From the NCBI GenBank assembly GCA_001512965.1, contig LFRW01000043.1, positions 23,287-87,286 on the forward strand: a DNA stretch of 64,000 bases, in the 5' to 3' direction. Under the pieces are notes generated by a model, which had not been told where the DNA came from, made no database searches, and saw only the letters and a program-made list of their open reading frames with translations. Both the position numbers and the translations under genes were made by a program. The stretch is from Methanomicrobia archaeon DTU008. GTDB lineage: Archaea; Thermoplasmatota; Thermoplasmata; Methanomassiliicoccales; Methanomassiliicoccaceae. This document shows, piece after piece, positions 789 through 22,083 of the stretch; the stretch's first letter is position 1, and every line of letters begins with the position of its first letter.

Positions 789-1391
789 TCACAGATGCTT
801 CCGCACCTTGGAGACTATCTCGTCCAGCTTGTGCTGGGGACTGTTCGCCCCTCGGATGACACCTGTCACTATCTCCACTATCTCTCCCTTGGTGGCGACA
901 TCTTCCTCCCTGGGGCGGACCACCCGGGTCTTCACGCCGATGCGGGCGAAGTCCTCGAAGTCCACCGGTGCCTGACACACCACCACGGCCGGTAGGTCCA
1001 CGTTTCTAAGGATGAGTCGGGCCTTGTAGATGATGTGGTTCCTGACATTGCCCAGATGGATCAATGCCAGTTTGAACTGCTGGATGCGGTCGACCTCCAA
1101 CTGGTCAAGGCCGAATATGGAACCCGTGCTCATATCAGGCGCATCGGCGGGGACGCCGGCGCCCGCATTGATCACGATGACGCTGGTGTCGATGCCTTCT
1201 TCACGGAGCGCATAGGTGATCTCACAAACCGGCTTCGTGATGTGGCGCTTGCCGGGGCCCATGGCCACTGCCACCACGTCCCTTCCGCTCTCGGAGATGG
1301 TGGCCCTCTGTGCCAGCCCGCCTCCCACGCCGAGCCCTCGGGACTCCCGGCATTCCACGAAGCTGAGATGTCGGCCGATCTTTGCCTTCAT
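789..1391 (-). CDS. mcrC: methyl-coenzyme M reductase operon protein C (McrC)
   Basis: 200 aa with McrC hallmarks: [73 protein letters not shown]. The start overlaps the atwA stop by 4 nt. Confidence 0.9.
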
Positions 1392-7245: not shown

Positions 7246-7590
7246 ATGGCATCCAGCGAGGAGAACGCTAGAAAGACCCGCCTCTGCGTGGACGCAGGCG
7301 TCTGCCGCTTCCACACCACCGTTCGGGCCTTCAGCGATGATGAGGGTAACATATTGTACGAGATCGAGAGCGAGTGCCCGCACGCAAGTAAGATCCAGGA
7401 TAACATCCCTCGAGAGATGACACCATTTGACGTCATGAAGATGCCCTTCTCCGAAAATCCCATCTATGAGTGCTGCGGGAAGGTCCTCCCGCATTCGGCC
7501 TGTCCGGTGCCTTCAGCGTTGATAAAGGCCGCTGAGGTCGCCGCGGGATTCGGCTTGAAGAGGCGTGTTTGCATGACGTTCGAGGATTAG
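7246..7590 (+). CDS. small cysteine-rich hypothetical protein (114 aa, 7 Cys)
   Basis: ORF with Cys clusters CVDAGVC, ESECPH, YECCGKVLPHSACPVP. No family recognised. Ends in TAG. Confidence 0.45.
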   Translation: MASSEENARKTRLCVDAGVCRFHTTVRAFSDDEGNILYEIESECPHASKIQDNIPREMTPFDVMKMPFSENPIYECCGKVLPHSACPVPSALIKAAEVAAGFGLKRRVCMTFED

Positions 7591-7916
7591 TCAGCCTCTA
7601 GCGGCCCTCCCAGGATCGCATCCACCTTTTCAGACCAGACCACGGTGGCGGGCCCGGCCAGATACATGGCTACGAGCATGGACTCCCTCAGCTCATCCAC
7701 CGTGGCTCCAAGCTCCTTGGCCCGTTCCGCCCATGTCTCGAGACAGGTATCGCATCGCATCAGGCACGAGATGCCTACGGCCATGAGGGCCTTCTCCTTC
7801 GAGCTTAGAGCCCCGTCACGAAATATCTCGTTCTTCAATTTGTACAGCGCATTTATCGCTGCCGGTTGCTGCTTGGCCAGCAGAGTTAAGCTCATAGCGT
7901 GAAAACTCCATGTCAC
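7587..7916 (-). CDS. carboxymuconolactone decarboxylase / AhpD-like family protein
   Basis: 109 aa with the CMD-family pattern LSSKEKALMAVGISCLMRCDTCLETW (CxxC redox motif). Confidence 0.7.
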   Translation of the reverse strand: MTWSFHAMSLTLLAKQQPAAINALYKLKNEIFRDGALSSKEKALMAVGISCLMRCDTCLETWAERAKELGATVDELRESMLVAMYLAGPATVVWSEKVDAILGGPLEAD

Positions 7917-8909: not shown

Positions 8910-9197
8910 TCATCCTCCGCCTGAAGGAGTTATCTGGGAGGCTTTCGCCTGGATGTCTTCTATCTGCTCGCGCAGACGGTTGACCTCCTCCAGTTGGTCC
9001 TCCAGGCTCCTGTCGCGTGTGGATTCCTTGCGGTACTCCTCCGGCTTGGCAGGAACAAGGGTCGAGACATCGTAGTAGAGGTTGGTGGTGTCCAGGAGTG
9101 CCCAGGTCCTTCCTTCCTCTTCCTTGATGTCCTCTATCTTTCCCACCGATCCGGTGTTGCGATACTTGGCAAGGTCTCCAACTTTCATCGCGATCAC
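8910..9197 (-). CDS. small conserved archaeal protein (resembles DUF2098), last gene of the mcr transcription unit
   Basis: N-terminal SH3/KOW-like [44 protein letters not shown], then a charged coiled tail. The GTG at 9197 overlaps the mcrA TGA (GTGA); an alternative ATG at 9188 lies 5 nt after the stop. Confidence 0.6.
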
Positions 9198-10858
9198 TTG
9201 GCGGGGATGATGATGGTCCTCTCACCCGCAGGCATGAACTCCCTGAGGGCGCCACGGCCGAACTCCTTCGTGATGTTCGCGAAGTCGAACGGCAGGCTCT
9301 TGTCGGCGAAGGCAACCTTGATGAGGGGGTTGCAGGCAAAGGCATCGCCGCGAGCTGCGTGAGGCGCCATCGCAATACCGGCGTAGCCGCTCATGTGACC
9401 GACGTTCATGGCGTAGTTCGGGTAGTTGGGTCCCCTCATCTCGAAGGCCAGACCCTCGTCGCTCCTGTAGGAGAACGAGTTCGCGGAACCGCACTGGTCC
9501 TGCAGGTCGAAGCCGTAGAAGCCGAGACGTCCGTGCCTCTCCTTGTGCTGGAGCATGGACAGGTACCAGCCGTTGACACCGAAGTCGGCGTTGCCGGTCG
9601 CCATCGCACATGCGATACCAGTGGCAGCAGCGGCTACGGTGGCACGCTGGGAACCGCCGAAGTGGGCTTCCATCGCGGCGGGGTACCTCTCGTACATCTC
9701 CAGAGCGTAGGAGTTGACCTCGGTACCGAGCTTCTCCATCAGGTCCATGGAGGGTTTGCTGTTGCACAGGCCGCCGTACTTGGTCTTGATCAGGTCAAGA
9801 GCCCAGTAGACGTAGTCCTCCAGGATGTCGTCGGTGTAGGCCGCAGTAGCGTACTGGGTGAATCCGACACCGCCGGACATGTAGGAACCAAGGTAGATCT
9901 GGTCGTAGATGACGGCACCGAGAGCGACGGTCTCGAGCGCAGCCCTGGCGGGGTCGTCAGGGTAGACGCGGGTGGACTGGACCATGTCGGCCAGGAACCC
10001 GAAGGGAATTCCACCGGGCTCGTTGGGGCCACGGGCCCTGCGGGCCGGCATCATGGTACCCATGTTCACGACCGAGGCGTGCTTGGCAGCGTAGGCGAAG
10101 TCCGCGATGGCGGCCTCACCGGCAGCGAGCCTGTAGGCGCTGATGAAGGACATCGAGATCTGCATGGCAGACCAGCGGGAGATGGTACCTCCGTCGCAGA
10201 CGCGGCCGACAAGGGTCGGGGCGCGGACGACCTGGTACACGGACTTGCCGATGGCGTCCTTCAGCTGCTTGGCCTGGTCCTTGGGGAACTCCTTGTTGAT
10301 GTCGATCACGAAGCGCTTGTCGATCTGGCTGATGAGCTCGTCGTCACCGCTGAAGACCTTCACATAGCAGTCCTCGGCCAGAGCGGGGCTGACCTCAGCC
10401 ATGTGCTCCTGGACGACCGCACCGCCGGGCATGGCATGGTTGACGGTCTCGAGGTACAGGTTGATGGTCTCAGGGGTAACTTCCTTGCCCAGTCTCTTCT
10501 CGATGACGCTGTGAGCGGTGTCGAGACCCACGATGACGGTCCTGCGGATGTCATCCCACGCCTGCTGCATGGCGGCGTTGTTCATGAAGTGCAGGTCGTC
10601 AGCCTCGGCGTAGATGTCGGTGTGGGACAGCCTGTAGGGCATGAGGACACGCTGGCCAAGGGGAACGCCAATGTCCTGGTTCATCATCGGGATGCCACGC
10701 TTCTTGGCGATCTGGTTGGCCTGCTCTACCCACTCCCTCTTCCTCTTGGACTGCTTCCAGCCACCAAATGTGTAGTAGTGAGTGTTGACCTCGGTCGGGT
10801 CCTCTTCGAACTTCTTCTTCATCGCTTCGATGAAGAGCTTCTCCTTAGACTTAGCCAT
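9194..10858 (-). CDS. mcrA: methyl-coenzyme M reductase alpha subunit
   Basis: 554 aa with the canonical blocks [50 protein letters not shown] and [16 protein letters not shown]. The residues that are modified in characterised MCRs are present: H260, R274, Q404, G449, D454, C456. Confidence 0.97.
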
Positions 10859-10862
10859 TTAT

Positions 10863-11636
10863 TTACTCCCCCTTCAGAGCGTAGGCCTGGTAACCGCAAA
10901 GGGTCCTCAGCCTGTGGATCCTCAGGTTGATGGCCATGACCTCGGGGTCGTCCCTCATGTCCACGCCATCGGCCCTGAAGATGGTGGTCATATTCTTCAG
11001 GTCAGCTTCGGGCAGGGGCTTGCCAACGGAGATGGGCTTGTCCAATGGTAGAGCCACCTGGTCCTTGACGTACTCTACCTCTCCGGTCTTGGCGTTCCAG
11101 CGGTACCTCTGCCAGGCATCGAACATCAGACCGTTCTCGTCAAGCCTGCAAGCGTGGCCGTGCACAGTGGCGCCACGGATACCGGTCTTGGCGGGGTCGA
11201 ACGTCTCGTTGTCGATGAGTTCCTTGGAGACCTTCTCGAGGTCACGCTCCCTCATCTCAATGATCTGCCTTCCAGAAAGAGTACCAGTGTCGAAGCCGCG
11301 AATGCGGGTCATGTACATCCAGGCCCTCAGGTATGGAACCATCGGGGCGAAGTACACCGAGTCGGTGAACTGGACGTACCTGATCCTGTCTCCAGCCTTG
11401 GCACCCTCGATGGGGGTGACAAGTTGCCTGATCAGGTCTTCGGGCTCGCTCCCCTCAGCGAGTGGGGGGTGGATGCTCTTGTAATCTTCTCCAGGAGCCC
11501 TGTGTCCAAGGATCCTGATGACGTCGTCCATGGCCACATCGCGAAGCTTCTTCAGCTTCTCGGAGGGGTCCATGTAGCGGCGCCTGTTCTTGGCCACCTG
11601 GCTCTCACCGGGATAGAACTGTCTCTTGTATGCCAT
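10863..11636 (-). CDS. mcrG: methyl-coenzyme M reductase gamma subunit
   Basis: 257 aa: [10 protein letters not shown]..., [46 protein letters not shown]. Confidence 0.95.
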
Positions 11637-11637
11637 G

Positions 11638-12063
11638 TTAACACCTTTTACCCTTTTTGTAATCGGTCACTGTCGGCCTGTATTTCGAGTACCGCCCCAC
11701 TTCCAGGTTGAATCCAAAGGTCAGGATCTCCTGGCAAACCTTCTCGATCTCGTCTAGTGCACCCTGCAGATGATCGATGTCGTCTATCTCGACGAACACC
11801 CTTCCCACCTGGAGCTGCAGTTCGACTTCCTTTCCCTTGACCTTGATCACCCGGCGTTCGGAGTGGTCCACGGGTAACCCGATGTGAGGACCATAGGTGA
11901 CCTTCGTCGGGAGGGATTCGCCAGATAGATTGATCTGACGGACATGCGGAACCTCATAGAGCCTGTTAAGGAGCTTTTCCGTGGTTTCCGCGGAAAGGAG
12001 ACGGTGTGGGAATATGAGAACCTCGGGGAGAGGTATCGATTCAGCGTCAGTACTCGTCATCAA
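11638..12063 (-). CDS. mcrD: methyl-coenzyme M reductase operon protein D
   Basis: 141 aa: [43 protein letters not shown]. Sits between mcrB and mcrG. Confidence 0.88.
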
Positions 12064-12077
12064 GCCACCGTAACCGC

Positions 12078-13397
12078 TTACTTCAGCTTCTTGGCCTCCT
12101 TCCCGACAGCCTTCAACGGGGCCTTGAACTCAGGGATGTCACCATAGACGTCCTTGATCAGGGTCGAAGTGGCCTCAGGAGAGAAGTACTGGGTTCCGGC
12201 ATCGAGGCTGCAAGCAGCGGCGATACATGGGATCACGAAGCCCTTGCTGTGCCTGGTAACGACGTGGTTGCCGTGGAACAGACCGGGACCGCCACCACCA
12301 TAGATGGAGTGCGAGAAGAAGGACATACCGACGGAAACACCCATCGCACGCCCAAAGTCAACGCTGGGAAGTCCAGTCTCGTGCTCGAGCAGGTCGTTGT
12401 AGTACAGAATGGTCGCAGGTACAGCCTGAGATGCCCTAGCAGCACCGATGTTCACCATGACAGCGGCTAGCATACCAGTGGCCGCGTAGGCGTTCCACAG
12501 GGGGAAGTCGTTGGTGGTGTACACCTTGTACCCAGAGGGCAGCTTCTCCTTCACCTTGATGACCTTGTCCTCGATAGCGCGGCCGACGATGGCGCCGACG
12601 ACATCGCCGACGGTACCGTTCTTGCCGCATTCCTTCACAAGGTCAACGGTCAGGTTGTTCGCGTTCAGGCCCTGGTAAGCCAAGCCCAAGAGGTGGTACC
12701 TCTCGAAGGGACCGATAGCGTCACCGAGCTCGAACATGGCGGTCTGCTCGAAGATCGAAGAGATCGCCGCAGCATTCAGAGAGTTCTTGCTGGCAAGAGC
12801 AACCACGTGGTTGGCCATGATGTTCCTGAGAGCGTAGCCAGCACCCTCGTTGTTCTGGGGAACCTCGAGGATGGACTTGACGTTGGAGCCCAGGAAGTTG
12901 ATGGTCTGGGGGTATCTGCCCCACACGGCGGTCTTAACCATGTTCGCGTGGAACATGTCAATTCCGAACTCATCGATGATGGCCTGCGTGACCGCTGCAG
13001 CGGCTGCAGTGAAACCGGTCGTGTACTCGACACCGGTCTCTACCCTGCGGGTCGGAACCTGGACAACCAGCCTCTTTCCGCCAAGGATGGGGTGCACATC
13101 GGTGTCGTCGTCCTTGTCGACCTTGAGGATGTCCTTGACCCTCTTGGCGATCTTGTCAGCGTTGGCCACTACCTCTACGTCGATCTCCTTGCCCTTGATG
13201 TATCCGCCGGCGACACGTCCGGTCTTGAGACCCTTCTCAATTCCGGCAAGGTCTACCGCGATGGTCCTCTTGGCAAGAGATACGATTCTCTGGATCGCAG
13301 GGTTGTACAGAGGGTTGATCGCATCGAGGGGCACATCCTTCTCGATGAGTTTGCCCTTGTCGTCATACAAGTCTATTTTGTCCTTGTATTTCGCCAA
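12078..13397 (-). CDS. mcrB: methyl-coenzyme M reductase beta subunit (TTG start)
   Basis: The track ORF opens at 13427. The family N-terminus (M)[14 protein letters not shown] begins at the TTG at 13397, exactly 6 nt after GGAGGT (13404-13409). The remainder is typical McrB ([22 protein letters not shown]). Confidence 0.93.
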
Positions 13398-13460
13398 ATT
13401 TCTACCTCCTTTTTCATCTTCCTTCAATCGCCCGGAGTTCCCCCCGCGCGATTAAGACGT

Positions 13461-13655: not shown

Positions 13656-14288
13656 TCAATTTTTTTGAGCCGATTTAACAGCTTTAATGACAGAAATAGC
13701 GTCGATTCGTTTAAAATTTCGATTCTTAGATTTAATATAGGATTCGAATTTTTTCATCGTTGTCTGTTGCAAAACTTTTCTAGATATGGCCAATAGCATT
13801 TCATAGGATCTCTTGGGGTAAAACGTTGATTTCAGTTGCTCAATAATAATCATTGCATCTGATTCTGATATGACTCTATCTTTGACCGCCTCCTCCACAT
13901 TGAGCCGCAGGTTGACCAACGGCTCTGAGAGGGCGGCAAGGGTGAACGGATCGAACATTAGCACCACCTCATCGTCGCCCTCGATGCGCCCAGAGGAATA
14001 TTCCTCGTAGATCCGTCCCACTCCTATCATGCCAAGGCTGTCCAGCTCGGCCGCGCGGAGCGCTCCCATCGAACCGCCGCCGATGACCCTTGTACCTCGC
14101 TGCATCAGCTGAAGTATCTCCCTATGGCCGACCGCGGCATCGCTGAGCAGTACGCCATCTATTATCCCTACCACCTCCACTCCTTCGGGGAGTTCTAGAA
14201 GATCCCCTCGCTTCACCGGAGGGCGGTAGTCCGCATCGAGGATACGCCTAGCCTCCTCATGAGGGAGGCTGGGGCCAAGGAAGATCAC
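13656..14288 (-). CDS. tfuA: TfuA-like protein (YcaO partner for McrA thioamidation)
   Basis: 210 aa: MIFLGPSLP, PPVKRGDL, GIIDGV, VIGGGSMGALRAAEL, GVGRIYE. Sits directly downstream of ycaO. Confidence 0.85.
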   Translation of the reverse strand: MIFLGPSLPHEEARRILDADYRPPVKRGDLLELPEGVEVVGIIDGVLLSDAAVGHREILQLMQRGTRVIGGGSMGALRAAELDSLGMIGVGRIYEEYSSGRIEGDDEVVLMFDPFTLAALSEPLVNLRLNVEEAVKDRVISESDAMIIIEQLKSTFYPKRSYEMLLAISRKVLQQTTMKKFESYIKSKNRNFKRIDAISVIKAVKSAQKN

Positions 14289-14293
14289 CGGCT

Positions 14294-15496
14294 TCAGCGG
14301 AAACCACCCATCAGGCGTGCGCCGACGCGATCCTCGTCGATGGCGAATACTTCCATCCCAGGCACGATCACGCGAACCACTGGAATGCCCAGCTCCTTCC
14401 GGGTGAGGTCCACGACCACGGTGCGGTTCATTCCCTGCGCATTGATCTTGGCTCTGACTATCTGCAGGTCATCGAAGATATCGTCCGTCCCCATGCGGGG
14501 GAGATCGTCAAGGGAGCGCTTGTTTCCCGAGGGGGTGAGCCACATCTTGTTTATCCTCTTCATTCGCTCATAGCCCAACTTCCGGTTGCCTATCGCATAC
14601 ACGGCATCCTCCCTTGCACCATGGATCTGCGTGAGACGGCTCTGGGCCACCTCCAGCAACGCCTTGGTGGCGGCCACCTCGGGATCGAGATGGGTGCCGA
14701 TGCCCAGGTTCAGAAGTGCGGGGTCCTGCATTATGGTGTCATCGACGGCTGCGGCGATGGTCGGGATCCCTATCTCGGTCGTCAGGTCCTTGAGGTGCAC
14801 ATCGATGCCATTGCTCGTGAATCGCTCGACCAGTTCCTTCACCGGCCCGGACGACGGCACCTCTATGTCGCCGGTTATCCTGCGCCTTCCCTCCGCGAAG
14901 GACCAATCATTGCGCTCCACCACCTCATATAGGCCGTGCAACACCGCCTCCTCCACATTGTTGCCGCTGGCCAGACCGTTCGTCGACGTTCTGAAGAGAG
15001 GGAAATCCATCTTGGACACATATGGATGGAACACAGCACTGGCCGGCACCCAGGTCTCCTCATTGCCGTTCAGCTCCCATCCCTTCACCCATGCCACGGA
15101 CTGGCGCATGACGTAGAACGCCGCATGCTGCGAGAGGATCAGGTCCATCGGGTGAACGGCGACGTGGGAGGCCATGAACTCCTCGACGCCCTGCCTGATG
15201 ATGAAGTCGTCCCGGACCTCCGCGCTATACCTCTCCAGGGCCTCCATGATGGCGGAGACCTTCGCCTCCTCCTTGGTCAGCCCCTTCCCATTGTACACCG
15301 AGATGGCGCCGCTCTTGGCGGTAGGGCGGATGGCCGAGAAGACCGGAATTCCCACACGGTCGAGATCCGTGATGTCCGCAACCCTGGTCACACCCGCAAC
15401 GCCCATCAGGGGCTCAATCCTGGCAAGGGTCTCGGCAGGCTCGACCGATCGATGCCCGTCAGAGGTGAATTTCTTGGGAGTGCTTCCGAGCTTCAT
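14294..15496 (-). CDS. ycaO: YcaO-family ATP-dependent cyclodehydratase/thioamidase
   Basis: YcaO blocks: GIPVFSAIRP, SVYNGKGLTKEEAKVSAIMEALERYS, TNGLASGNNVEEAVLHGLYEVVERN. Homology starts at MKLGSTPKK (ATG 15496). The 100-codon track extension to 15799 is S/R-rich and overlaps the divergent gene. Confidence 0.88.
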   Translation of the reverse strand: MKLGSTPKKFTSDGHRSVEPAETLARIEPLMGVAGVTRVADITDLDRVGIPVFSAIRPTAKSGAISVYNGKGLTKEEAKVSAIMEALERYSAEVRDDFIIRQGVEEFMASHVAVHPMDLILSQHAAFYVMRQSVAWVKGWELNGNEETWVPASAVFHPYVSKMDFPLFRTSTNGLASGNNVEEAVLHGLYEVVERNDWSFAEGRRRITGDIEVPSSGPVKELVERFTSNGIDVHLKDLTTEIGIPTIAAAVDDTIMQDPALLNLGIGTHLDPEVAATKALLEVAQSRLTQIHGAREDAVYAIGNRKLGYERMKRINKMWLTPSGNKRSLDDLPRMGTDDIFDDLQIVRAKINAQGMNRTVVVDLTRKELGIPVVRVIVPGMEVFAIDEDRVGARLMGGFR

Positions 15497-15557
15497 GCCC
15501 TCGCCATAATCTCCTCCCCTATTAAATCTCACGAAGCGGACATATACCTGGGATACA

Positions 15558-16409
15558 TTGACGGGACGGTTTTCGCTGATGAGAACAAGTGAGATCATGG
15601 GCATGAGCGCCAGGTTCATCGAACCGTCCTTCGATGCGCTGGTCGACGAGTCGTTCACCGGGATAATCCTCACCCTGCCCGCCCAGGAGGCTCGATTGGT
15701 CGTAGACGAGGAAGACTGGCCCCTTGCGTTGGCGGTGCGCGACGGCGAGGCGTGGAATGCCGCTTCGTTCCTGCTTCGCCCCCCGATCATCGAGGTCATC
15801 GAGAGGTTCGAAGAACTGGGGGGAGATGTCGTTCATACCACCCAGGACGAGTTCATGCTGGCAATGCGGGAGTACTACTCGCTCCATATCCTCAACAATA
15901 CACTGATGGCCATGGAGGACCTGTCCCCGGACCGTACAGCCAAGGTCGAGGAGCTCATAGCTTCGGTATGGAAGGGCCGACGAGGAGAGGAGTGCATGGA
16001 CTGCGGGTGCGGCTCGGGCATGGGGTCCCTCGCCCTCAGGAACCAAGGCATCATCCCTCTGGCCTTCGACAATGACGCTGGCCTCATTGCTCGCGGCCTG
16101 CACGAGGGTCGCCTGATCCCCGAAAGGACCATGTGCATCGATGCCACCTTGCTATCCCATTATGCTAGACAGGTGCCTCTTGGGCTCGCTCTGATGGCTG
16201 GTTCCATAATCGATCAGACCGCCATGATGTGGAGAGCCATCCTGGAAGAGCTGTTCTCCATGACCAGGGAGACGTTGATAACCGTGGAGACGGAGAAGGA
16301 GGCGAACATGGTTCGGACGTGGGCCCTGGAAAATGAGAAGAACGTGGAGATGTTCGAGAACGAGCGTGACCCCTTCTACGATCGCTGGGTTTGCCTGGTG
16401 AAGGATTGA
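15558..16409 (+). CDS. class I SAM-dependent methyltransferase with unrecognised N-terminal domain
   Basis: Motif I ECMDCGCGSGMGSLAL, acidic post-I residue in PLAFDNDAGLI, and later strands CIDATLL and GLALMAGSI. About 130 aa of N-terminal sequence has no motif I recognise. Start may be 15597 or 15603. Divergent from ycaO across about 60 bp. Confidence 0.65.
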   Translation: MTGRFSLMRTSEIMGMSARFIEPSFDALVDESFTGIILTLPAQEARLVVDEEDWPLALAVRDGEAWNAASFLLRPPIIEVIERFEELGGDVVHTTQDEFMLAMREYYSLHILNNTLMAMEDLSPDRTAKVEELIASVWKGRRGEECMDCGCGSGMGSLALRNQGIIPLAFDNDAGLIARGLHEGRLIPERTMCIDATLLSHYARQVPLGLALMAGSIIDQTAMMWRAILEELFSMTRETLITVETEKEANMVRTWALENEKNVEMFENERDPFYDRWVCLVKD

Positions 16410-16883
16410 TCAGCGCAGGTTCCCCATCTTCTTCTGGTAGAGGTCCAGTTCAGCGTTGGGGTTGATAGTCACGCTGTCTATGATGATGTCGACCTCGACA
16501 TTGTTGATGTTAGGTATCTTGAGTATGTGCGTCTGAATCAGTTCATAGAGGGAATCGACGCTAGTGGTGTAGATGTTCAAGACCAGGCTGTGGTCGCCGA
16601 ACGTCCTCATCACCGACTCCACTTCTGGATACTTCTTCAGCTCCTCCACCACATTGTTGACGGCGGTGCCAGTGACCTGCAGGCCGACCAGTGCCTTCAT
16701 CAACCCAAGCTTGGCCGGGTTGGTCTCCATAGAATAGCCAGAGATTATTCCTTCCTCCTCCATCTTGGAGAGTCGGCGAGATACCGTTGCCTTTGATATG
16801 TTAAGCTCCTCAGATATTTTGCCGAGACTGTCCCGGGAATTTTCCCGTAGGCATTTCAAGATAGAGATGTCGGTTGGGTCCAT
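16410..16883 (-). CDS. Lrp/AsnC family transcriptional regulator
   Basis: 157 aa: the HTH is DISILKCLRENSRDSLGKISEELNISKATVSRRLSKMEEEGII, followed by a RAM/ACT-like C-terminal domain. Confidence 0.85.
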   Translation of the reverse strand: MDPTDISILKCLRENSRDSLGKISEELNISKATVSRRLSKMEEEGIISGYSMETNPAKLGLMKALVGLQVTGTAVNNVVEELKKYPEVESVMRTFGDHSLVLNIYTTSVDSLYELIQTHILKIPNINNVEVDIIIDSVTINPNAELDLYQKKMGNLR

Positions 16884-17102: not shown

Positions 17103-18743
17103 TCAAGCGCGCTGGGTGACCTTGAGGTCGCCGAATCGGTACACCTTTTGAGGGCAGACCGACTCGCAGTGCTTGCAGGCCGTTCCAAGGCAGTGCTCGG
17201 TGGCGATCCTGATGGTGAAGTCGTGGGGGCCGCCCTCGAGCACCTGCAGCGCCCTCTCCGGACACTCCTCTTCGCACATCTTGCAGCCAATGCAGCCCTC
17301 GAAGCCGCCAGTGAGGTATACGCCGACATTGTCGAGGATGTGCAGCCCATGGTCGCCTATCACGGGGATGTCGGATACCACCAGACGCTTCATCTCCTTG
17401 GGGCGGACTATCGGCGGCAGAGGCTGGAGGCCGTTGCTCTTGAGCACCTCGTTATACATCTCCTCAGGCATCCCTTCCGCCCAGAACGCGATCTCGTTGA
17501 CATACATGTCCTCGAAGATCTTGCTGGTGGCGAACATGATGTGCTTCGACGCGATGGAGTCGGCGACCTTCTGCATCTCGTCGAGAGCAGAGTCGTCCCT
17601 GACTAGATCATATGCCATCATAAGCGAAGTGTTTCCCACCTGGACCGTGGCGTCTATGACCCGAGGCACCATCCCCACCCTCTGCGCCTTGAGCGGATCG
17701 ACATATGTGCCAGAGGCTCCCGCCAGGTACATGGTCTTGACATCGTTGTCCTTGATACCGACCTCTTCGATGAGCGTGCGGTGGCCTGCCCGTATGGCGC
17801 CCATGGCCTTTCCGGCCTCCGCCAGGTCGGTCTCGGAGAAGGTTATGCCATCCTGGAAGTGCAGTAGATGGTCGGGCGTCCTGATGCCCGGCAGCGAGAT
17901 GAGACCGGATTCGAGACCCACCGCCACTGCCGCAACTACTCCGGTGCCTGTGATGCCGCGTGCCCTGATGTCTGCCATCCGCTTCGACGTCCCGTTCGCC
18001 GGGTCGGTCAGGCTGCCCACAACGGGATGCAGGTTTGGATCCAGCACGACGTTTTTCCAGAGATCGTCCTCGCCGATGTTGAGGTCGGATATGGCGAACG
18101 GGGCTGCGAGCATCCCATGGTCGATGGCCTGCCCCTCCATGGCGGGACCCGCCGCGGCGGAGCCGCTATACAGCTCCCCGTCATGGAACAGCCCCATCTC
18201 GGCGTTCGTGCCATAATCGGTGACTATGCAGGTCTCCTTCTTTTCCAGTAGGCCGGACTTCATGATCATGGCCAGGGCGTCCGCCCCGATCTCATGTCGG
18301 ATCGCGGGAGGTATGACCACTTCAACCTCGGACCTCACAGATGTAAGGCCGAGATCGCCGGCCGTCGTCACGTGACCACGGCGCTCAGGAATCTTCACCT
18401 GGAGGCGTTTCAACAGCGACTGTCCGGCATATGCCAGGTCCCTGATCTCGATGTTCTCGAACATCGACACCTGGGCGGGATTGCCGCAGACCGCTATACG
18501 CTCGATCTCCTTGAGCGGTACGCCGTGAAGCTCTATGAGACGGCTCACGGTGTTCATTATGATGCTGTGACCCACCTCTGCCCCGTTCTCCAGCCAGAAA
18601 TGCAGATGGTCCATGATGTTTGCCCCTGGAAGGGGGTGTCTCATGGTGATCGCCGTCGAGACTATCTTGCCGTTTTTTGACAGGTCCACAAGGTGGGTCC
18701 TATAGCCACTTGTTCCTACGTCGAGTGCAACACCGTAGCCCAT
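17103..18743 (-). CDS. ramA: corrinoid protein reductive activase RamA (ASKHA ATPase + 2x[4Fe-4S] ferredoxin domain)
   Basis: 546 aa: ALDVGTSGYR, TDYGTNAEM and AGPAMEGQ (ASKHA fold). The C-terminus carries CIGCKMCEEECP and CLGTACKHCESVCP. Confidence 0.85.
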   Translation of the reverse strand: MGYGVALDVGTSGYRTHLVDLSKNGKIVSTAITMRHPLPGANIMDHLHFWLENGAEVGHSIIMNTVSRLIELHGVPLKEIERIAVCGNPAQVSMFENIEIRDLAYAGQSLLKRLQVKIPERRGHVTTAGDLGLTSVRSEVEVVIPPAIRHEIGADALAMIMKSGLLEKKETCIVTDYGTNAEMGLFHDGELYSGSAAAGPAMEGQAIDHGMLAAPFAISDLNIGEDDLWKNVVLDPNLHPVVGSLTDPANGTSKRMADIRARGITGTGVVAAVAVGLESGLISLPGIRTPDHLLHFQDGITFSETDLAEAGKAMGAIRAGHRTLIEEVGIKDNDVKTMYLAGASGTYVDPLKAQRVGMVPRVIDATVQVGNTSLMMAYDLVRDDSALDEMQKVADSIASKHIMFATSKIFEDMYVNEIAFWAEGMPEEMYNEVLKSNGLQPLPPIVRPKEMKRLVVSDIPVIGDHGLHILDNVGVYLTGGFEGCIGCKMCEEECPERALQVLEGGPHDFTIRIATEHCLGTACKHCESVCPQKVYRFGDLKVTQRA

Positions 18744-19155
18744 TGGTCTCTCCGGCCAGAAATCAGAACGGAGCTATAAAAAGAATAACACGAACAAGCC
18801 AGATGGCATAATGGACATTTCGTTGCGATCGGTCGATCGAACATCGGGGTTCTCTCGGCAGCATCGCGACCACATCGAGGTCATCACTTCGGCGGTCCAG
18901 GCGCTTACATGCCCGTTCCGGATCACTGCCATACCATCATCATCGCGGAACCGAGGAAAATCTGGATAACACCATGCGCCTAGCAAGTTGAGTTCCCCCA
19001 TGAGGATGGAGAGTTACGGCATAGTTCGACCATGCATCGCTTCCATTTGCCGCTATATATACGTAGCGTCTCGTCAAGAATCCAATGCGGCGAACAAATG
19101 ACGAGCTGACTCGCAACAGTGAAATGAAAATAAGAAAGGAATAAGGGGTTTCGGA

Positions 19156-19172
19156 AAACTGCAAGGCAGTTT
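19156..19172 (-). terminator. hairpin AAACTGC-N3-GCAGTTT overlapping the MT2 stop codon, followed by T-rich tract
   Basis: 7-bp perfect stem read directly. The minus-strand transcript continues TTTTCCGAAACCCCTTATTCCTTTCTTATTTTCATTTC. Confidence 0.4.
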
Positions 19173-20169
19173 ATCCCTTGATGGCCTTGACCATCGCCTC
19201 GATGTTCGCCTTGGGAACACGAGCGGCGAGACCGCAGCCAGGAGCGACGACGTTGAAGCCGGCGTTCTTGATGTCCAGGGCGTGCTCGCGGCACTCCTCG
19301 GGAGTTCCCTGAAGCAGCGGGCGGACGACACCCATGTTACCGACAAGGGCGGCGCGGCCAGCGACGAGCTCGACGGCCCTGTGGGGGTTTACCTTCTCCT
19401 CGATCGAGAGCGCATCTGCACCAGTGTCGATCATGTGGTCCAGGAGAATGGTGGTGTCTCCGCAGATGTGCAGGATCTTGAGAGCGCCCTCGGCACCCTC
19501 CCACGCGGTCTTGGTGTACGGCTTGGCGAACTCGTCGAACATCTCACCGGACAGCATGTCGGTGGAGGCGGAGGGGTCGCTCATGGCGATGACGTCAGCA
19601 CCAGCGGCGACAAGGGCCTGCAGGTACTTCTTCTCCATCTCAGCGGCCACCTTGATGAACTTGTGAACGGCATCGGGATCGGTGATCATCATGAGCAACA
19701 GGTTCTCGGTGCCGACCAGGTGGCCAGCGATGGTCAGGGGACCGGTGGTGCCCACGACGATCGGGAGCTCGTCGCCATACTGCTGCTTCAGCAGCTTGGT
19801 GGCCTCGATGACCGTCTTGACCCTGCCCTTCTCAAGGAAGTCCTCGGGGTAGACGGGGGTGTCCTCAGCGGTGTAGATGTGCTTCTTAACCATGGGGGTG
19901 CGGTCTACCTTGCCCAGGTCCACGAGGCAGCCAAAGGCCTCAGCCTCGACGGTCAGGCAGAACGGGATCCTGGCGTTCTCGAATCCAAAGACCTTGTAGC
20001 CAGCAGCTCCGAGCTCAGCCATCTGCTTGGCGTCGGTGTGTGCCTCGGGCCAGAAAGCACCAACAGCTTCCATCTGGTCAACGGTTACGGATTGGGTGAC
20101 GCATCCGACTGCGGGCCTGTCCAGCTCCTCACGCTTAAGTGCTGCAATGAACCTCTCTTTCGGGGTCGT
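19171..20169 (-). CDS. methylcobamide:coenzyme M methyltransferase (MT2, MtaA/MtbA family), apparent ACG initiation
   Basis: UroD-like MT2: the track ORF starts at ATG 20073 (MEAVGAFWPEAH...), yet the 32 in-frame codons upstream encode TTPKERFIAALKREELDRPAVGCVTQSVTVDQ, the conserved family N-terminus. The frame is closed by TAA at 20182-20184. The only candidate start is ACG 20167-20169, 6 nt after GGAGGT (20176-20181). Confidence 0.8.
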   Translation of the reverse strand, partial: TTPKERFIAALKREELDRPAVGCVTQSVTVDQMEAVGAFWPEAHTDAKQMAELGAAGYKVFGFENARIPFCLTVEAEAFGCLVDLGKVDRTPMVKKHIYTAEDTPVYPEDFLEKGRVKTVIEATKLLKQQYGDELPIVVGTTGPLTIAGHLVGTENLLLMMITDPDAVHKFIKVAAEMEKKYLQALVAAGADVIAMSDPSASTDMLSGEMFDEFAKPYTKTAWEGAEGALKILHICGDTTILLDHMIDTGADALSIEEKVNPHRAVELVAGRAALVGNMGVVRPLLQGTPEECREHALDIKNAGFNVVAPGCGLAARVPKANIEAMVKAIKG

Positions 20170-20214
20170 AGAATTACCTCCTTATCCAAAAGATTTAGTT
20201 GGCAATTGGAATAA

Positions 20215-20222
20215 CTATATAA
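20215..20222 (-). promoter_or_regulatory. TATA box TTATATAG for the MT2 gene
   Basis: Lies 46 nt upstream of the ACG at 20169. The predicted transcript start is near 20190, leaving about 20 nt of leader with the SD. Confidence 0.4.
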
Positions 20223-20393
20223 TTAGTTTTCGTCAATTTTGGTGAACAATCGTTGGTATCGGGAACAGTCTGGCTCATGTTCATGTTCGCTTTCAAAATG
20301 CGAGCGATATGTATCTTTTCATGGATGTAAGGAGGTCAAGGACATCACCCCCTTGAGTACATCTGGGAGAAGCGATATGATGGCCTTGAAGCA

Positions 20394-21341
20394 TCATTGC
20401 TCCGGCAACCGGCCGCCCCGGAAGTCGATATCGCTCCATGGGTCCTTCGAGGCCTTTTCCCATACGTTTCGTATGTTGAAGCTCCGTGGACCCAGGTCAG
20501 GATCGTCCAGTTCCTCCCACCGCAAGGGCGCTGCCACCGGAGCGCCGTCCCTTGCCCTGACAGCATACGGGGCCACCCCGGTCTGGGCATAGGCGTTGCG
20601 GAACACGTCCACAAGCAGACGGCCTTCCCTCTCCGTAACAGAGCGTTCCATCGTCAGCCTGTCATCCATCTGGACCATCTCATCCGCTATGCCCATGGCA
20701 TAGGACCTGACGGCATCGAAGTCAGCGGTGCGATCGAGCGGTACCACGACATGCATTCCTCTGGACCCCGTCGTCATGACGAAACCTTTCAGCCCATCGT
20801 CGGAAAGGAGCTCCCGCGCCAGAAGGGCGGCCTCCTTCACCACCTCGAAGTCATCATCGCCAGGGTCGAGATCGAGAATCATGCGATCCGGACATTCCGG
20901 ACGGTCCACGCGGCTCAACCATACGTGAGGGGTGATGCAGTCGAGGTTGGCTAGATAGACGAGGTCCGCGGTCTTCTCACACACCATGTGCCTCACATAT
21001 CCGCCCTGCTTGGGCATGTTCTCGGTTCGTAACCAGGAAGGCGCCCCTCGGGGTACGTTCTTCTGTATGAAGCCAGGGGCATCGATGCCATTTGGATGCC
21101 GTACCATAGACACCGGCCTCTCCTTGATGAATGGAAGCATGAACGGAGCTATGCGCCTGTAATAATCGACCAGGTCTGCCTTGGTATACCCATTGCGAGG
21201 AAACAATGGACGATCAGGGTTCGTGATATCGATCTCTATGATCCCAGGGGATCCTTCGACCTCGATATCGATACCGCATGAACTTGCATCCTCCCTCGGA
21301 TCATGCATTCGCCAGACCATGGGAGGACGATGGGTGCCCAT
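20394..21341 (-). CDS. stand-alone LigD-type polymerase/primase domain (NHEJ PolDom, AEP superfamily)
   Basis: 315 aa: ITNPDRPLFPRNGYTKADLVDYY, ERPVSMVRHPNG, ILDLDPGDD, FVMTTGSRGMHVVVPL, LVDVFRNAYAQTGVAPYAVRAR. No ligase, Ku or phosphoesterase domain is attached. Confidence 0.8.
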   Translation of the reverse strand: MGTHRPPMVWRMHDPREDASSCGIDIEVEGSPGIIEIDITNPDRPLFPRNGYTKADLVDYYRRIAPFMLPFIKERPVSMVRHPNGIDAPGFIQKNVPRGAPSWLRTENMPKQGGYVRHMVCEKTADLVYLANLDCITPHVWLSRVDRPECPDRMILDLDPGDDDFEVVKEAALLARELLSDDGLKGFVMTTGSRGMHVVVPLDRTADFDAVRSYAMGIADEMVQMDDRLTMERSVTEREGRLLVDVFRNAYAQTGVAPYAVRARDGAPVAAPLRWEELDDPDLGPRSFNIRNVWEKASKDPWSDIDFRGGRLPEQ

Positions 21342-21406
21342 AGCTTCTATAATCTATCACTCGCTCGGCTGCGACGATAGGAATCGATCGGAAAAGTAGG
21401 TTGAAA

Positions 21407-21425
21407 GGAGGGACGTGGTCCCTCC
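21407..21425 (-). terminator. GC-rich hairpin GGAGGGAC-GTG-GTCCCTCC downstream of the corrinoid gene
   Basis: Perfect 8-bp stem, 20 nt after the stop at 21445. Followed on the minus strand by TTTCAACCTACTTTTCC. Confidence 0.5.
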
Positions 21426-21444
21426 GTGGTTTGTGTGGTTATGT

Positions 21445-22083
21445 TTACTTCAGAAGGTTCTGGACGACCTGGACGGCCTCGACAGCGTCGTAAGCCCATC
21501 CATCGGCACCGATCTGAGCGGCGAACTCCTTGGAGGTAGCACCGCCACCGATGATGGTCTTCATCTTGCCCTTCAGGTTCTCCTCGGCGAGCATGCGCTC
21601 GATCTCCTTCATGGCCGCCAGGGTGGGGGTCATGAGGGTAGAGGCAGCAACAACCTGGGCCTCCTCGGCCTTAGCCTTCTCAACAATGTTCTTCACGGGC
21701 ACATCGCGGCCGAGGTCGAAGATGGTGAGTCCAGCTCCGGTCAGCATGGCCTTGACGATGTTCTTTCCGATGTCGTGCACGTCACCCTCGACGACAGCGA
21801 GGACGATCTTACCAGGAACGGCGTTTGCATCAACGACGAGCTTAGGCAAGGCAACGTCAAGAGACTGGTACATGGTCTGAGCGGACAGAAGGACCTGGGG
21901 CAGGAAGTACTGCTTGTTCTCGTACTTCTCGCCTACGACAGCCATGGCCTTGCTGAGGCTATCAAAGATGATGGTCTTAGCGTCGATGCCAGCAGCGAGT
22001 GCTTCCTCGGTGAGAGGTTTGGCCTCCTTGATCTTTCCCCTAATAACAACATCTGCTAGCTTTTCGAGTATCTCATTGCTCAT
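21445..22083 (-). CDS. methyltransferase-cognate corrinoid protein (MtaC/MtbC/MttC family), no adjacent MT1 gene
   Basis: 212 aa: EEALAAGIDA, FLPQVLLSAQTM, EGDVHDIGKNIVKAML (DxHxxG), VVAASTLMTPTL, IGGGA. Confidence 0.85.
   Translation of the reverse strand: MSNEILEKLADVVIRGKIKEAKPLTEEALAAGIDAKTIIFDSLSKAMAVVGEKYENKQYFLPQVLLSAQTMYQSLDVALPKLVVDANAVPGKIVLAVVEGDVHDIGKNIVKAMLTGAGLTIFDLGRDVPVKNIVEKAKAEEAQVVAASTLMTPTLAAMKEIERMLAEENLKGKMKTIIGGGATSKEFAAQIGADGWAYDAVEAVQVVQNLLK

What the first reader, a model, noticed from the sequence alone, without database searches (positions are those of the whole stretch)
15558..16409. Uncharacterised SAM methyltransferase divergent from ycaO-tfuA next to mcr: candidate McrA-modifying enzyme
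The ORF has a clear class I SAM-binding motif (MDCGCGSGMGSLAL) behind a roughly 130-aa N-terminal domain I cannot place. It shares a roughly 60-bp divergent promoter region with ycaO-tfuA, the pair that installs thioglycine in McrA, and lies 2 kb from mcrBDGA.

The McrA encoded here keeps every residue that is methylated in characterised MCRs.
- H260, codon 10079-10081
- R274, codon 10037-10039
- Q404, codon 9647-9649
- C456, codon 9491-9493

The Arg and Gln methylations use radical-SAM enzymes. A conventional SAM methyltransferase (McmA) makes S-methyl-Cys in Methanosarcina. The N1-methyl-His enzyme is, as far as I know, still unassigned.

A class I methyltransferase clustered with the other PTM genes is therefore a candidate for either the Cys or the His methylation.
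Basis: partly seen in the sequence, partly recalled or inferred. Interest (0 to 1): 0.65.

Follow-up and report, generated by a model that had tools for sequence, protein, structure and literature searches.

The report
Unstudied methyltransferase beside methane-enzyme maturation genes
This gene encodes a SAM-dependent methyltransferase from an undescribed family found only in methane-cycling archaea; it is unrelated to the known cysteine methylase McmA but sits beside genes that chemically modify the methane-forming enzyme, so it is a testable candidate for one of that enzyme's unexplained methylations.

Summary
The ORF is real and conserved. The true start is probably ATG 15579 (276 aa), not TTG 15558. 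It lies divergent from ycaO-tfuA, 2.1 kb from mcrBDGA, in a Methanomassiliicoccus-like genome.

AlphaFold2 (pLDDT 94) gives a small class I Rossmann methyltransferase domain behind an about 110-residue N-terminal domain with no fold match in the PDB.

It is not a McmA homologue. I retrieved the real M. acetivorans McmA (MA4545), and it shares only motif I with this protein.

The protein belongs to a narrow, unannotated superfamily of about 40 full-length clusters among 1.84 billion representatives. Every named member comes from Methanomassiliicoccales, Methanomicrobiales or Methanosarcinales/ANME-2.

Gene neighbourhood is mixed:
- Linkage to ycaO-tfuA-mcr holds in most Methanomassiliicoccales lineages, including one where the genes are rearranged.
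- The Methanoperedens relative lies 1.5 kb from mmp10.
- In Methanomicrobiales the gene follows apgM and ribosomal protein genes instead.

Published work says Methanomassiliicoccales lack mcmA, mmp10 and mgmA.

My best reading is an MCR-maturation methyltransferase (about 0.55). The target residue is unresolved: Cys456 about 0.3, His260 about 0.25. No experiment supports either.

The parts
15579..16409 (+). Methyltransferase CDS (276 aa plus stop). An alternative upstream TTG at 15558 would give 283 aa.
   Evidence: ORF list. The start is set by alignment with homologues of 276-278 aa and by the identical P0001. Metatranscriptome contigs cover it.
15579..15902 (+). N-terminal domain, residues 1-108: three short helices, a three-stranded sheet, a helix, a strand, then a long helix (89-107). 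It has no known fold relative and is the inferred substrate-recognition module.
   Evidence: AlphaFold2 pLDDT 96 when modelled alone. Foldseek against the PDB gives best E 0.025. Pfam gives no hit. The domain is conserved into the Methanosarcinales sister family (hhalign). Net charge is -13.
15975..16406 (+). Compact class I (Rossmann) SAM methyltransferase domain, residues ~133-276.
   Evidence: AlphaFold2 model. Foldseek gives probability 1.0 to ChlM, METTL5, PH1948 and GSMT. PDB profile hits cover motif I only.
15996..16025 (+). Motif I, M-D-C-G-C-G-S-G-M-G (residues 140-149). C144, G145 and G147 are invariant across both sister families.
   Evidence: Sequence; alignments A1 and A4.
16068..16076 (+). 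D164-N-D166 at the end of strand 2. D164 is the acidic residue expected to bind the SAM ribose.
   Evidence: D164 and D166 are invariant in A1. D164 is at least 90% conserved across A1 plus A2. The role is inferred from class I methyltransferase architecture.
16356..16388 (+). C-terminal signature E-N-E-R-D-P-F-Y-D-R-W (residues 260-270). D268 and W270 are invariant and Y267 and N261 nearly so. This is the family hallmark and an inferred part of the substrate pocket.
   Evidence: Alignments. It was used as the pattern that recovered 165 relatives in metagenomes.
15497..15578 (.). 82-bp divergent intergenic region between ycaO and the methyltransferase. It holds an AT-rich TATA-like element, TATTAAAT, at 15521-15528.
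   Evidence: Sequence. The block around the TATA-like element is shared with locus L005, and other lineages have their own AT-rich box upstream of the ATG. Promoter function is inferred; the available scan covers only sigma-70 promoters.
14294..15496 (-). ycaO (McrA glycine thioamidation), 400 aa.
   Evidence: TIGR03266 at 449 bits and Pfam YcaO; start position.
13656..14288 (-). tfuA (thioamidation partner).
   Evidence: NF033432 at 257 bits and Pfam TfuA.
9194..13427 (-). mcrB-mcrD-mcrG-mcrA operon, the proposed substrate. mcrC is elsewhere, at about 777-1301 (-).
   Evidence: ORFs; PDB hits for McrB and McrD; tblastn.
9491..9493 (-). McrA Cys456 codon, candidate S-methylation site.
   Evidence: Translation.
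10079..10081 (-). McrA His260 codon, candidate N1-methylation site.
   Evidence: Translation.
16410..16883 (-). Lrp/AsnC-family regulator. It abuts the methyltransferase stop codon and stays next to the methyltransferase in relatives, even where the gene order is rearranged.
   Evidence: Pfam and NCBIfam; loci L005, L006, L007 and L033.

Best explanation
The gene encodes a SAM-dependent protein methyltransferase of a previously undescribed family. The family has two branches: 'A1' in Methanomassiliicoccales and Methanomicrobiales, and a sister 'A2' in Methanosarcinales/ANME-2.

I propose that it takes part in maturation of methyl-coenzyme M reductase. The proposed mechanism has four steps, all inferred:
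1. The gene is transcribed from its own promoter, divergent from ycaO-tfuA, at a low level similar to ycaO.
2. The acidic, family-specific N-terminal domain recognises McrA before it folds or assembles. This parallels what has been suggested for McmA, Mmp10 and MgmA.
3. The compact Rossmann domain binds SAM through motif I (DCGCGSG) and Asp164.
4. A methyl group is transferred by SN2 chemistry to a nucleophilic side chain, with the conserved C-terminal Y-D-R-W element lining the substrate pocket.

The target is either the thiol of Cys456 or N1 of His260. I lean slightly to Cys456, which would make it a non-homologous functional analogue of McmA.

What is shown: the gene is real and conserved, it has a class I methyltransferase fold, it is not homologous to McmA, it has a narrow distribution in MCR-bearing lineages, and its synteny is as described. 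What is inferred: the substrate, the residue, the role of the N-terminal domain and the timing.
For: 1. Fold. The AlphaFold2 model has pLDDT 94. Foldseek gives probability 1.0 to class I methyltransferases.

2. Narrow family.
- An exhaustive profile search of 1.84 billion representatives found only 143 hits.
- About 40 are full length: A1, plus a 300-360-aa sister family A2.
- The lower tier is generic methyltransferases or ankyrin noise.
- A1 and A2 align end to end (hhalign probability 100%, E 2e-43, 277 columns).

3. Distribution. Every named member comes from an MCR-encoding lineage. These are Methanomassiliicoccus, Methanoculleus, Methanolinea, Methanoregulaceae, Methanoperedens, ANME-2a/c, Methanimicrococcus, Methanolapillus and Methanosarcina sp. 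MTP4.

4. Synteny with known MCR-modifying genes.
- The methyltransferase is adjacent to ycaO-tfuA-mcrBDGA in the window and in relatives at 46-53% identity (L005/6, L036, L039, L052).
- In L033 (49% identity) the order is rearranged to MT-Lrp-ycaO-tfuA-mcr on one strand, yet the linkage is kept.
- The Methanoperedens A2 gene is 1.5 kb from the mmp10 orthologue.
- In about 10 Methanoregulaceae-like loci mmp10 lies 5-7 kb upstream in the same block.

5. Need for such an enzyme. Published surveys report that Methanomassiliicoccales lack mcmA (PMC7058361), mmp10 (PMC5943407) and mgmA (PMC11796369). McrA here nevertheless keeps His260 and Cys456.

6. Known modifications. ANME-2c and ANME-2d MCRs, from lineages that carry A2, contain both S-methylcysteine and N1-methylhistidine (PMC12413448).

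7. Charge. The proteins are strongly acidic (median pI 4.5, net charge about -21), which fits a protein substrate better than RNA.

8. Expression. Metatranscriptome contigs cover the gene at a depth similar to ycaO.
Against: - There is no experimental datum for any member.
- In Methanomicrobiales, which supply about 65 of the 80 metagenomic loci, the gene follows apgM in a block of ribosomal protein genes with no mcr, ycaO or tfuA nearby.
- One Methanomassiliicoccales lineage (L032) has no mcr linkage.
- Most A2 loci show neither mcr nor mmp10 within 8 kb.
- The family was not detected in named members of Methanobacteriales, Methanococcales, Methanopyrus or core Methanosarcina. Their MCRs carry N1-methylhistidine, and some carry S-methylcysteine.
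- No MCR from Methanomassiliicoccales has been solved, and I found no analysis of its modifications in the papers searched. It is therefore unknown which modifications that enzyme has.
- Metatranscriptome contig depth is a poor measure of expression and can include DNA.
Confidence: 0.55

Rival explanations
1. The enzyme is specifically the N1-methylhistidine (His260) methyltransferase of McrA in the three orders that carry the family. Other methanogens would use unrelated enzymes.
For: - N1-methylhistidine is reported in every MCR examined, and its enzyme is still unassigned.
- According to published surveys, Methanomassiliicoccales have no other known MCR methylase. This is the only methyltransferase clustered with their mcr and ycaO-tfuA genes.
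- Phylogenetic profiling has found the Arg, Gln and Gly enzymes but no universal His methylase. That is what one would expect if several unrelated families do the job (inference).
- The enzyme is very acidic, while the McrA segment around His260 ([21 protein letters not shown]) is basic. This is weak evidence.
Against: - The family is not universal. The exhaustive profile search found it only in three orders among named members.
- Methanothermobacter, Methanopyrus, Methanosarcina barkeri and ANME-1 enzymes all carry the modification.
- Nothing in the sequence marks an N-methylase; there is no (D/N)PP(Y/F)-type motif IV.
Confidence: 0.25
2. The enzyme methylates some other methanogen-specific protein or small molecule, such as a cofactor, a corrinoid-system component or a different enzyme. 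Its position next to ycaO-tfuA-mcr in Methanomassiliicoccales would then be a lineage-specific accident.
For: - In Methanomicrobiales the conserved neighbours are apgM, rpS3Ae, rpS15 and a DHH protein.
- One Methanomassiliicoccales lineage lacks the mcr linkage.
- The best NCBIfam hits are the corrinoid-protein-associated methyltransferase CpaM and BchM. In the window the gene is also 0.7 kb from a RamA, MtaA-like and corrinoid-protein cluster.
- Foldseek's top hit is the tetrapyrrole methylase ChlM.
Against: - The CpaM and BchM scores are 15-22 bits against cut-offs of 159-180, and for the window protein they cover only motif I.
- The linkage to ycaO-tfuA-mcr survives a rearrangement.
- A separate link to mmp10 appears in Methanoperedens and Methanoregulaceae.
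- Methanomicrobiales mostly lack methylotrophic corrinoid systems (general knowledge).
- No SAM-dependent class I methylation is known in CoM, CoB or F430 biosynthesis (general knowledge).
Confidence: 0.25
3. The enzyme is an RNA (tRNA or rRNA) or ribosomal-protein methyltransferase.
For: - Foldseek neighbours include METTL5, PH1948, Bud23, Trm11, Trm14 and RlmO.
- The Methanomicrobiales context is ribosomal protein genes.
- The Methanoperedens gene is followed by an FtsJ/TRAM methylase.
Against: - The structural matches are generic Rossmann hits (TM about 0.45, 10-16% identity).
- The N-terminal domain is not THUMP, PUA or TRAM and matches nothing.
- The proteins carry about -21 net charge and the N-terminal domain -13, which is unfavourable for binding RNA.
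- Distribution is limited to three methanogen orders and is absent from their non-methanogenic relatives among named hits.
Confidence: 0.08

Closest known systems
McmA (MA4545, Q8THH2), the S-methylcysteine methyltransferase of M. acetivorans McrA
   Same: - Both are conventional SAM-dependent methyltransferases.
- Both have an uncharacterised N-terminal domain ahead of a C-terminal SAM-binding domain.
- Both are encoded beside mcr and other MCR-modification genes.
- Both are of similar size (326 vs 276 aa).
- The proposed mode of action is the same: SN2 methylation of a nucleophilic McrA side chain before assembly.
   Different: - They are not homologous beyond motif I (hhalign probability 36% over 41 columns; BLASTP E 0.017 over 26 residues).
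- McmA hits Pfam PrmA/MTS and has a Cys-rich N-terminus. The window protein hits no Pfam family and has a different N-terminal domain.
- McmA is experimentally proven. This protein is not.
Sister family 'A2': 300-360-aa 'class I SAM-dependent methyltransferase' proteins of Methanoperedens, ANME-2a/c, Methanimicrococcus, Methanolapillus and Methanosarcina sp. MTP4
   Same: - They are homologous over the full length, N-terminal domain included (hhalign probability 100%, E 2e-43).
- They share the invariant residues R119, C144, G145, G147, M206, G208, W218, E241, D268 and W270.
- They are also uncharacterised and also confined to MCR-bearing archaea.
   Different: - Identity is only 22-30%.
- A2 has insertions, including a Cys-containing LCxxC segment between the N-terminal and methyltransferase domains.
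- A2 members weakly reach Pfam Methyltransf_25/11.
- The neighbours differ: DUF2150, FtsJ/TRAM, CMD and mmp10 in Methanoperedens.
Mmp10/MamA and MgmA (B12-dependent radical SAM methylases of McrA Arg and Gln) and YcaO-TfuA
   Same: They are dedicated MCR-modification enzymes, often encoded beside mcr. The window gene clusters with ycaO-tfuA, and relatives lie near mmp10.
   Different: The chemistry and folds are entirely different: radical SAM and ATP-dependent YcaO versus a simple Rossmann methyltransferase.
Generic small class I methyltransferases (ChlM/BchM, METTL5/PH1948, glycine-sarcosine N-methyltransferase, TehB, CpaM)
   Same: They share the Rossmann fold and motif I.
   Different: Scores are far below the family cut-offs. 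They lack the N-terminal domain, and none has the C-terminal ENxxDxxYD(R/Q)W signature.

Membership tests
McmA (MA4545-type McrA cysteine S-methyltransferase) | Sequence homology to MA4545 over the whole protein | tested here: not met
   MA4545 was retrieved from the M. acetivorans mcr locus (L031:11864-12844). hhalign against the family profile gives probability 36% over 41 columns, motif I only. BLASTP gives E 0.017 over 26 residues. tblastn of MA4545 finds nothing in the window or in 113 related loci.
McmA (MA4545-type McrA cysteine S-methyltransferase) | PrmA/MTS-like methyltransferase domain with a Cys-rich N-terminal region | tested here: not met
   MA4545 hits Pfam PrmA (E 8e-7) and MTS. 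The window protein has no Pfam hit at E <= 0.1, and only MetW at E 0.16 when the threshold is relaxed to 1. The N-terminal sequences are unrelated.
McmA (MA4545-type McrA cysteine S-methyltransferase) | Catalyses S-methylation of the conserved McrA cysteine | not testable with these tools
   This needs mass spectrometry of McrA from a knockout or a complemented strain.
Class I (Rossmann-fold) SAM-dependent methyltransferases | Glycine-rich motif I (E/DxGxGxG) | tested here: met
   D141-C-G-C-G-S-G147 is present. G145 and G147 are invariant in 46 sequences.
Class I (Rossmann-fold) SAM-dependent methyltransferases | Alternating beta/alpha Rossmann-like fold with an acidic residue at the end of strand 2 | tested here: met
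   The AlphaFold2 model has pLDDT 94, with strands at 138-142, 159-164, 184-186, 199-204, 229-236, 255-260 and 270-275. Foldseek gives probability 1.0 and E 2e-7 to ChlM, PH1948 and METTL5. D164 is conserved at the end of strand 2.
Class I (Rossmann-fold) SAM-dependent methyltransferases | Binds SAM and transfers its methyl group | not testable with these tools
   This needs a biochemical assay.
New A1/A2 superfamily (this protein's own family) | Family-specific N-terminal domain plus methyltransferase domain ending in ENxxDxxYD(R/Q)W | tested here: met
   The window protein is the first row of alignment A1 and has all 26 invariant residues. A1 and A2 align over the full length.
CpaM (NF043040, corrinoid protein-associated methyltransferase) | Score above the NCBIfam cut-off (180 bits) over the whole model | tested here: not met
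   The score is 17.6 bits, covering residues 119-178 only.
THUMP/PUA-type RNA methyltransferases (Trm11, Trm14, RlmO) | N-terminal RNA-binding domain (THUMP, PUA or TRAM) | tested here: not met
   The N-terminal domain modelled alone has no significant fold match and no Pfam hit. Its net charge is -13.
MCR post-translational modification machinery (functional class) | Conserved genomic linkage with mcr or other MCR-modification genes | tested here: inconclusive
   The feature is met in the window and in the seven related Methanomassiliicoccales-type loci where linkage could be judged (L005-L007, L033, L036, L039, L052), and partly met near mmp10 in Methanoperedens and Methanoregulaceae. It is not met in most Methanomicrobiales or in most A2 loci.
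MCR post-translational modification machinery (functional class) | Present only in MCR-encoding organisms | tested here: inconclusive
   All named members are from methanogen or ANME lineages. Many members, however, are unnamed metagenomic sequences.

The most novel reading that the evidence does not exclude
This family is the long-sought N1-methylhistidine methyltransferase of methyl-coenzyme M reductase, at least in Methanomassiliicoccales, Methanomicrobiales and Methanosarcinales/ANME-2. That would imply that this universal modification is installed by different, unrelated enzymes in different methanogen lineages.
Probability: 0.25. Interest if true: 0.85.

Novelty: new variant of a known kind. 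Interest (0 to 1): 0.55.

Why it matters
MCR makes or consumes nearly all biological methane. Its active site carries several unusual modifications, and the installing enzymes are only partly known.

Two gaps remain open in the papers I could search:
- No enzyme is assigned to N1-methylhistidine, the one methylation found in every MCR examined.
- Nobody knows whether, or how, McmA-less methanogens such as the gut and digester Methanomassiliicoccales methylate the conserved cysteine.

This gene family gives a concrete candidate for one of those gaps, and the test is cheap. Knowing the full set of maturation enzymes is needed to produce native-like MCR in a heterologous host, which matters for methane bioconversion. 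It is also relevant to inhibitor strategies against rumen and gut methanogens. Even if the substrate is something else, this is a compact methanogen-restricted methyltransferase with an N-terminal domain that has no known fold relative.

Tried and rejected
1. **McmA orthology: rejected.** MA4545 was not directly retrievable, so I reached it in steps.
   - I took a fragment of M. acetivorans McrD from a PDB alignment (8gf5_X).
   - I used it to find the exact McrD protein and fetched its locus.
   - I translated the methyltransferase downstream of mcrA. It shares only motif I with the window protein.

2. **The A2 family is not McmA.** I first suspected that the 300-360-aa second-tier hits were McmA. 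They are not. They are a sister family of the window protein.

3. **N-terminal domain identity: no answer.** It has no PDB fold match when modelled alone and no Pfam or NCBIfam hit.

4. **Genome scan was truncated.** It cannot be used to infer absence in any genome.

5. I used A1 alone instead.

6. **Distribution of McmA across orders: not obtainable.**
   - Kahnt et al. 2007 is not held.
   - The supplements of PMC7058361 and PMC11796369 contain no McmA distribution table.
   - I therefore could not test whether McmA and this family are mutually exclusive.

7. **Promoter scan uninformative.** The tool covers only sigma-70 promoters, which do not apply to archaea.

8. **Low-scoring profile hits are noise.** P0232-P0246 are ankyrin or generic methyltransferases.

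9. **CpaM/BchM identity: rejected.** Scores are 15-22 bits against cut-offs of 159-180.
Full report
**Observation**

The window is a Methanomassiliicoccus-like genome of about 59% G+C. Its McrD aligns closely, but not identically, with the solved M. luminyensis McrD (phmmer E 1e-63). The same DNA is widespread in anaerobic-digester metagenomes.

Gene layout:

| Strand | Gene | Coordinates |
|---|---|---|
| − | mcrA | 9194-10858 |
| − | mcrG | 10863-11636 |
| − | mcrD | 11638-12063 |
| − | mcrB | 12078-13427 |
| − | tfuA | 13656-14288 |
| − | ycaO | 14294-15496 |
| + | flagged ORF | (15558) 15579-16409 |
| − | Lrp/AsnC regulator | 16410-16883 |
| − | RamA | 17103-18743 |

The ORF is real, and I make three corrections.
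- Homologues are 276-278 aa and start at the ATG at 15579. The identical database protein P0001 is 276 aa.
- The true ycaO start is 15496. The mechanical ORF list over-extends it to 501 aa.
- The divergent spacer is therefore 82 bp, not about 60. It contains a TATA-like TATTAAAT at 15521-15528.

Metatranscriptome assemblies cover the gene at 3-11x word depth. That is like ycaO and 20-100 times below mcr. This is a weak indication that the gene is transcribed at the level of a maturation gene.

**What the protein is**

Pfam gives no hit. NCBIfam gives only 12-18-bit motif-I matches to CpaM, BchM, PrmA and TehB, against cut-offs of about 155-330 bits.

AlphaFold2 with 28 homologues gives a confident model (pLDDT 94, pTM 0.90) with three parts:
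- an N-terminal α/β domain (residues 1-88);
- two long helices (89-131);
- a compact Rossmann domain (138-276).

Foldseek matches only generic class I methyltransferases: ChlM, METTL5/PH1948, glycine-sarcosine N-methyltransferase, Bud23 and Trm11/14. Query-normalised TM-scores are about 0.45 and identity is 10-20%. The N-terminal domain modelled alone (pLDDT 96) matches nothing in the PDB (best E 0.025).

Invariant residues include motif I (D141, C144, G145, G147), D164/D166, D188, M206/G208, W218, E241 and the C-terminal E-N-x-x-D-x-x-Y-D-R-W. The proteins are very acidic, with median pI 4.5 and net charge about -21. The N-terminal domain alone carries -13.

**Family and distribution**

A word-indexed search found 125 relatives. 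Nearly all are called 'hypothetical protein'. The named ones are from Methanomassiliicoccus/Methanomassiliicoccales and from Methanomicrobiales: Methanoculleus, Methanolinea, Methanoregulaceae and Methanomicrobiaceae.

An exhaustive profile search of 1.84 billion cluster representatives found only 143 hits. Apart from fragments, these fall into three groups:
- the family itself, 'A1';
- a second tier of about 25 proteins of 300-360 aa, 'A2';
- a low tier that is generic methyltransferases or ankyrin noise.

A2 proteins come from Methanoperedens, ANME-2a/c, Methanimicrococcus, Methanolapillus and Methanosarcina sp. MTP4/Mfa9. A1 and A2 are homologous end to end, N-terminal domain included (hhalign probability 100%, E 2e-43, 277 columns). 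They share ten invariant residues.

This is therefore a narrow superfamily seen only in MCR-bearing lineages of three orders. A neighbour-joining tree separates a ycaO-linked (Methanomassiliicoccales) clade from an apgM-linked (Methanomicrobiales) clade, with A2 outside both.

Nayak et al. 2020 (PMC7058361) identify McmA as MA4545. They describe it as an N-terminal domain of unknown function followed by a C-terminal SAM domain. They also note that McmA homologues are absent from Methanomassiliicoccus.

I retrieved MA4545 indirectly. I took an M. acetivorans McrD fragment from PDB entry 8gf5, used it to find the exact McrD protein, and fetched its genomic locus. That locus reads mamA, then divergently mcrBDCGA, then a convergent 326-aa methyltransferase.

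MA4545 has a Cys-rich N-terminus and a PrmA-like methyltransferase domain (Pfam PrmA E 8e-7). Against the A1 profile it aligns only over 41 motif-I columns (probability 36%). BLASTP gives E 0.017 over 26 residues. The window protein is therefore not a McmA family member. Any shared function would be by analogy.

**Genomic context**

In Methanomassiliicoccales the linkage to ycaO-tfuA-mcr is conserved.
- It holds in relatives at 53% identity (L005/6/7).
- It holds at 45-46% identity in metagenomic loci, including one from the human gut (L036, L039, L052).
- In a 49%-identity lineage the arrangement is MT-Lrp-ycaO-tfuA-mcrBDGA-DUF2098, all on one strand (L033). The linkage thus survives a rearrangement.
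- One lineage (L032, 41% identity) lacks it.

In Methanoperedens the A2 gene lies in the order DUF2150, A2, FtsJ/TRAM, CMD, a small gene, then mmp10. The mmp10 orthologue (61% identical to M. acetivorans MamA) is 1.5 kb away.

In Methanomicrobiales the gene almost always follows apgM in a block with rpS15, a DHH protein and rpS3Ae. About 65 of the 80 metagenomic loci show apgM or the block's ribosomal-protein gene. In Methanolinea and about 10 Methanoregulaceae-like loci, mmp10 heads that block 5-7 kb upstream. An MA4545-type gene occurs in none of the 113 loci apart from the M. acetivorans reference locus itself (L031).

**Literature constraints**

- Methanomassiliicoccales are reported to lack mmp10 (PMC5943407), mgmA (PMC11796369) and mcmA (PMC7058361).
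- The only established MCR-modification genes in this order are ycaO-tfuA.
[quoted passage not shown] Its enzyme remains unidentified in every paper I could search, up to 2026.
- ANME-2c and ANME-2d MCRs, from A2-bearing lineages, contain both S-methylcysteine and N1-methylhistidine (PMC12413448).
- Methermicoccus MCR has methyl-His but no methyl-Cys, and that genome lacks mcmA (PMC8070964).
- No Methanomassiliicoccales MCR structure is in the PDB.

**Interpretation**

Four observations make an MCR-maturation methyltransferase the best single explanation, at about 0.55:
- the family is restricted to methanogens and ANME;
- it is repeatedly, though not universally, linked to three different MCR-modification loci (ycaO-tfuA-mcr and mmp10);
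- its acidic character is unfavourable for an RNA substrate;
- no other known MCR methylase exists in this order.

By analogy with McmA, Mmp10 and MgmA, the family-specific N-terminal domain would recognise unfolded or unassembled McrA. The Rossmann domain would then methylate a nucleophilic side chain by SN2 chemistry. All of this is inference.

The target residue is unresolved.
- Cys456 (about 0.3) is favoured by the patchy distribution, which resembles that of a 'variable' modification. It is also favoured by the absence of McmA in Methanomassiliicoccus, and by the published inference that Methanosarcina acquired its McmA by transfer after a loss.
- His260 (about 0.25) is favoured because it is the only methylation expected in every MCR. 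It has no known enzyme, and this is the only methyltransferase in the order's mcr/ycaO cluster. It is disfavoured because the family is not universal.

The rivals are an unrelated methanogen-specific substrate (about 0.25) and RNA or ribosome methylation (about 0.08). The first draws on the apgM and ribosomal context in Methanomicrobiales and on weak CpaM/ChlM resemblance.

**Novelty and verdict**

The family is unannotated. It has no Pfam or NCBIfam model, carries an N-terminal domain with no known fold relative, and is not discussed in the MCR-modification literature I could search.

It is best filed as a new variant of a known kind: a conventional SAM methyltransferase that is a candidate MCR maturation enzyme, non-homologous to McmA. 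The clustering argument holds and extends to other lineages, but the McmA comparison is negative, the Methanomicrobiales context is neutral, and no data assign a residue. The experiments that would settle it are simple.

Noticed in passing
window 8910-9197 (-): A 95-aa DUF2098 gene sits directly downstream of mcrA. The same arrangement is kept in relatives L005, L006 and L033, so it behaves as a fifth gene of the mcrBDGA cluster in this order. It has no NCBIfam hit.
   Followed up: partly
window 7587-7916 (-); L008 9783-10223: A small CMD/AhpD-like protein lies about 1.3 kb beyond mcrA here. A CMD gene also sits in the same position beyond mcrA in L005. In Methanoperedens another CMD gene sits between the A2 methyltransferase and mmp10. 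This is a recurrent neighbour of MCR-modification genes with no assigned role.
   Followed up: partly
window 777-1301 (-): An mcrC homologue (54% identical to M. acetivorans McrC) is encoded about 8 kb from mcrBDGA rather than inside the operon.
   Followed up: no
window 14294-15799 (-): The mechanical ycaO ORF (501 aa) is over-extended by about 100 codons and overlaps the methyltransferase start on the opposite strand. Domain hits and relatives place the real start at 15496.
   Followed up: yes
L008/L014/L015/L016/L025, immediately upstream of the A2 gene: A DUF2150 protein (199 aa) directly precedes the A2 methyltransferase in Methanoperedens and ANME-2 loci, with a 6-bp gap in L008. It may be a partner protein. 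No homologue was found in the window.
   Followed up: partly
protein P0137 (409 aa, metagenomic): One family member is fused to an N-terminal HIT (histidine triad) domain (Pfam HIT, E 7e-20). Whether this is a true fusion or a gene-calling artefact was not checked.
   Followed up: no
alignment A4, columns ~195-215 (A2 proteins): A2 proteins carry a Cys-containing insertion (LCxxC...) between the N-terminal and methyltransferase domains. A1 lacks it. It could be a small metal site.
   Followed up: no
window 17103-22083: This is a methylotrophy cluster: RamA corrinoid reductive activase (TIGR04270, 724 bits), a URO-D/MtaA-like methyltransferase (19171-20073) and a B12-binding corrinoid-type protein (21445-22083). 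A LigD primase-polymerase-like ORF lies within it at 20394-21341.
   Followed up: no
window 12581-12651 (within mcrB): Two metatranscriptome assemblies (X27, X29) contain a contig that skips 69 bases inside mcrB. This is probably a strain variant with an in-frame 23-codon deletion or an assembly artefact.
   Followed up: no
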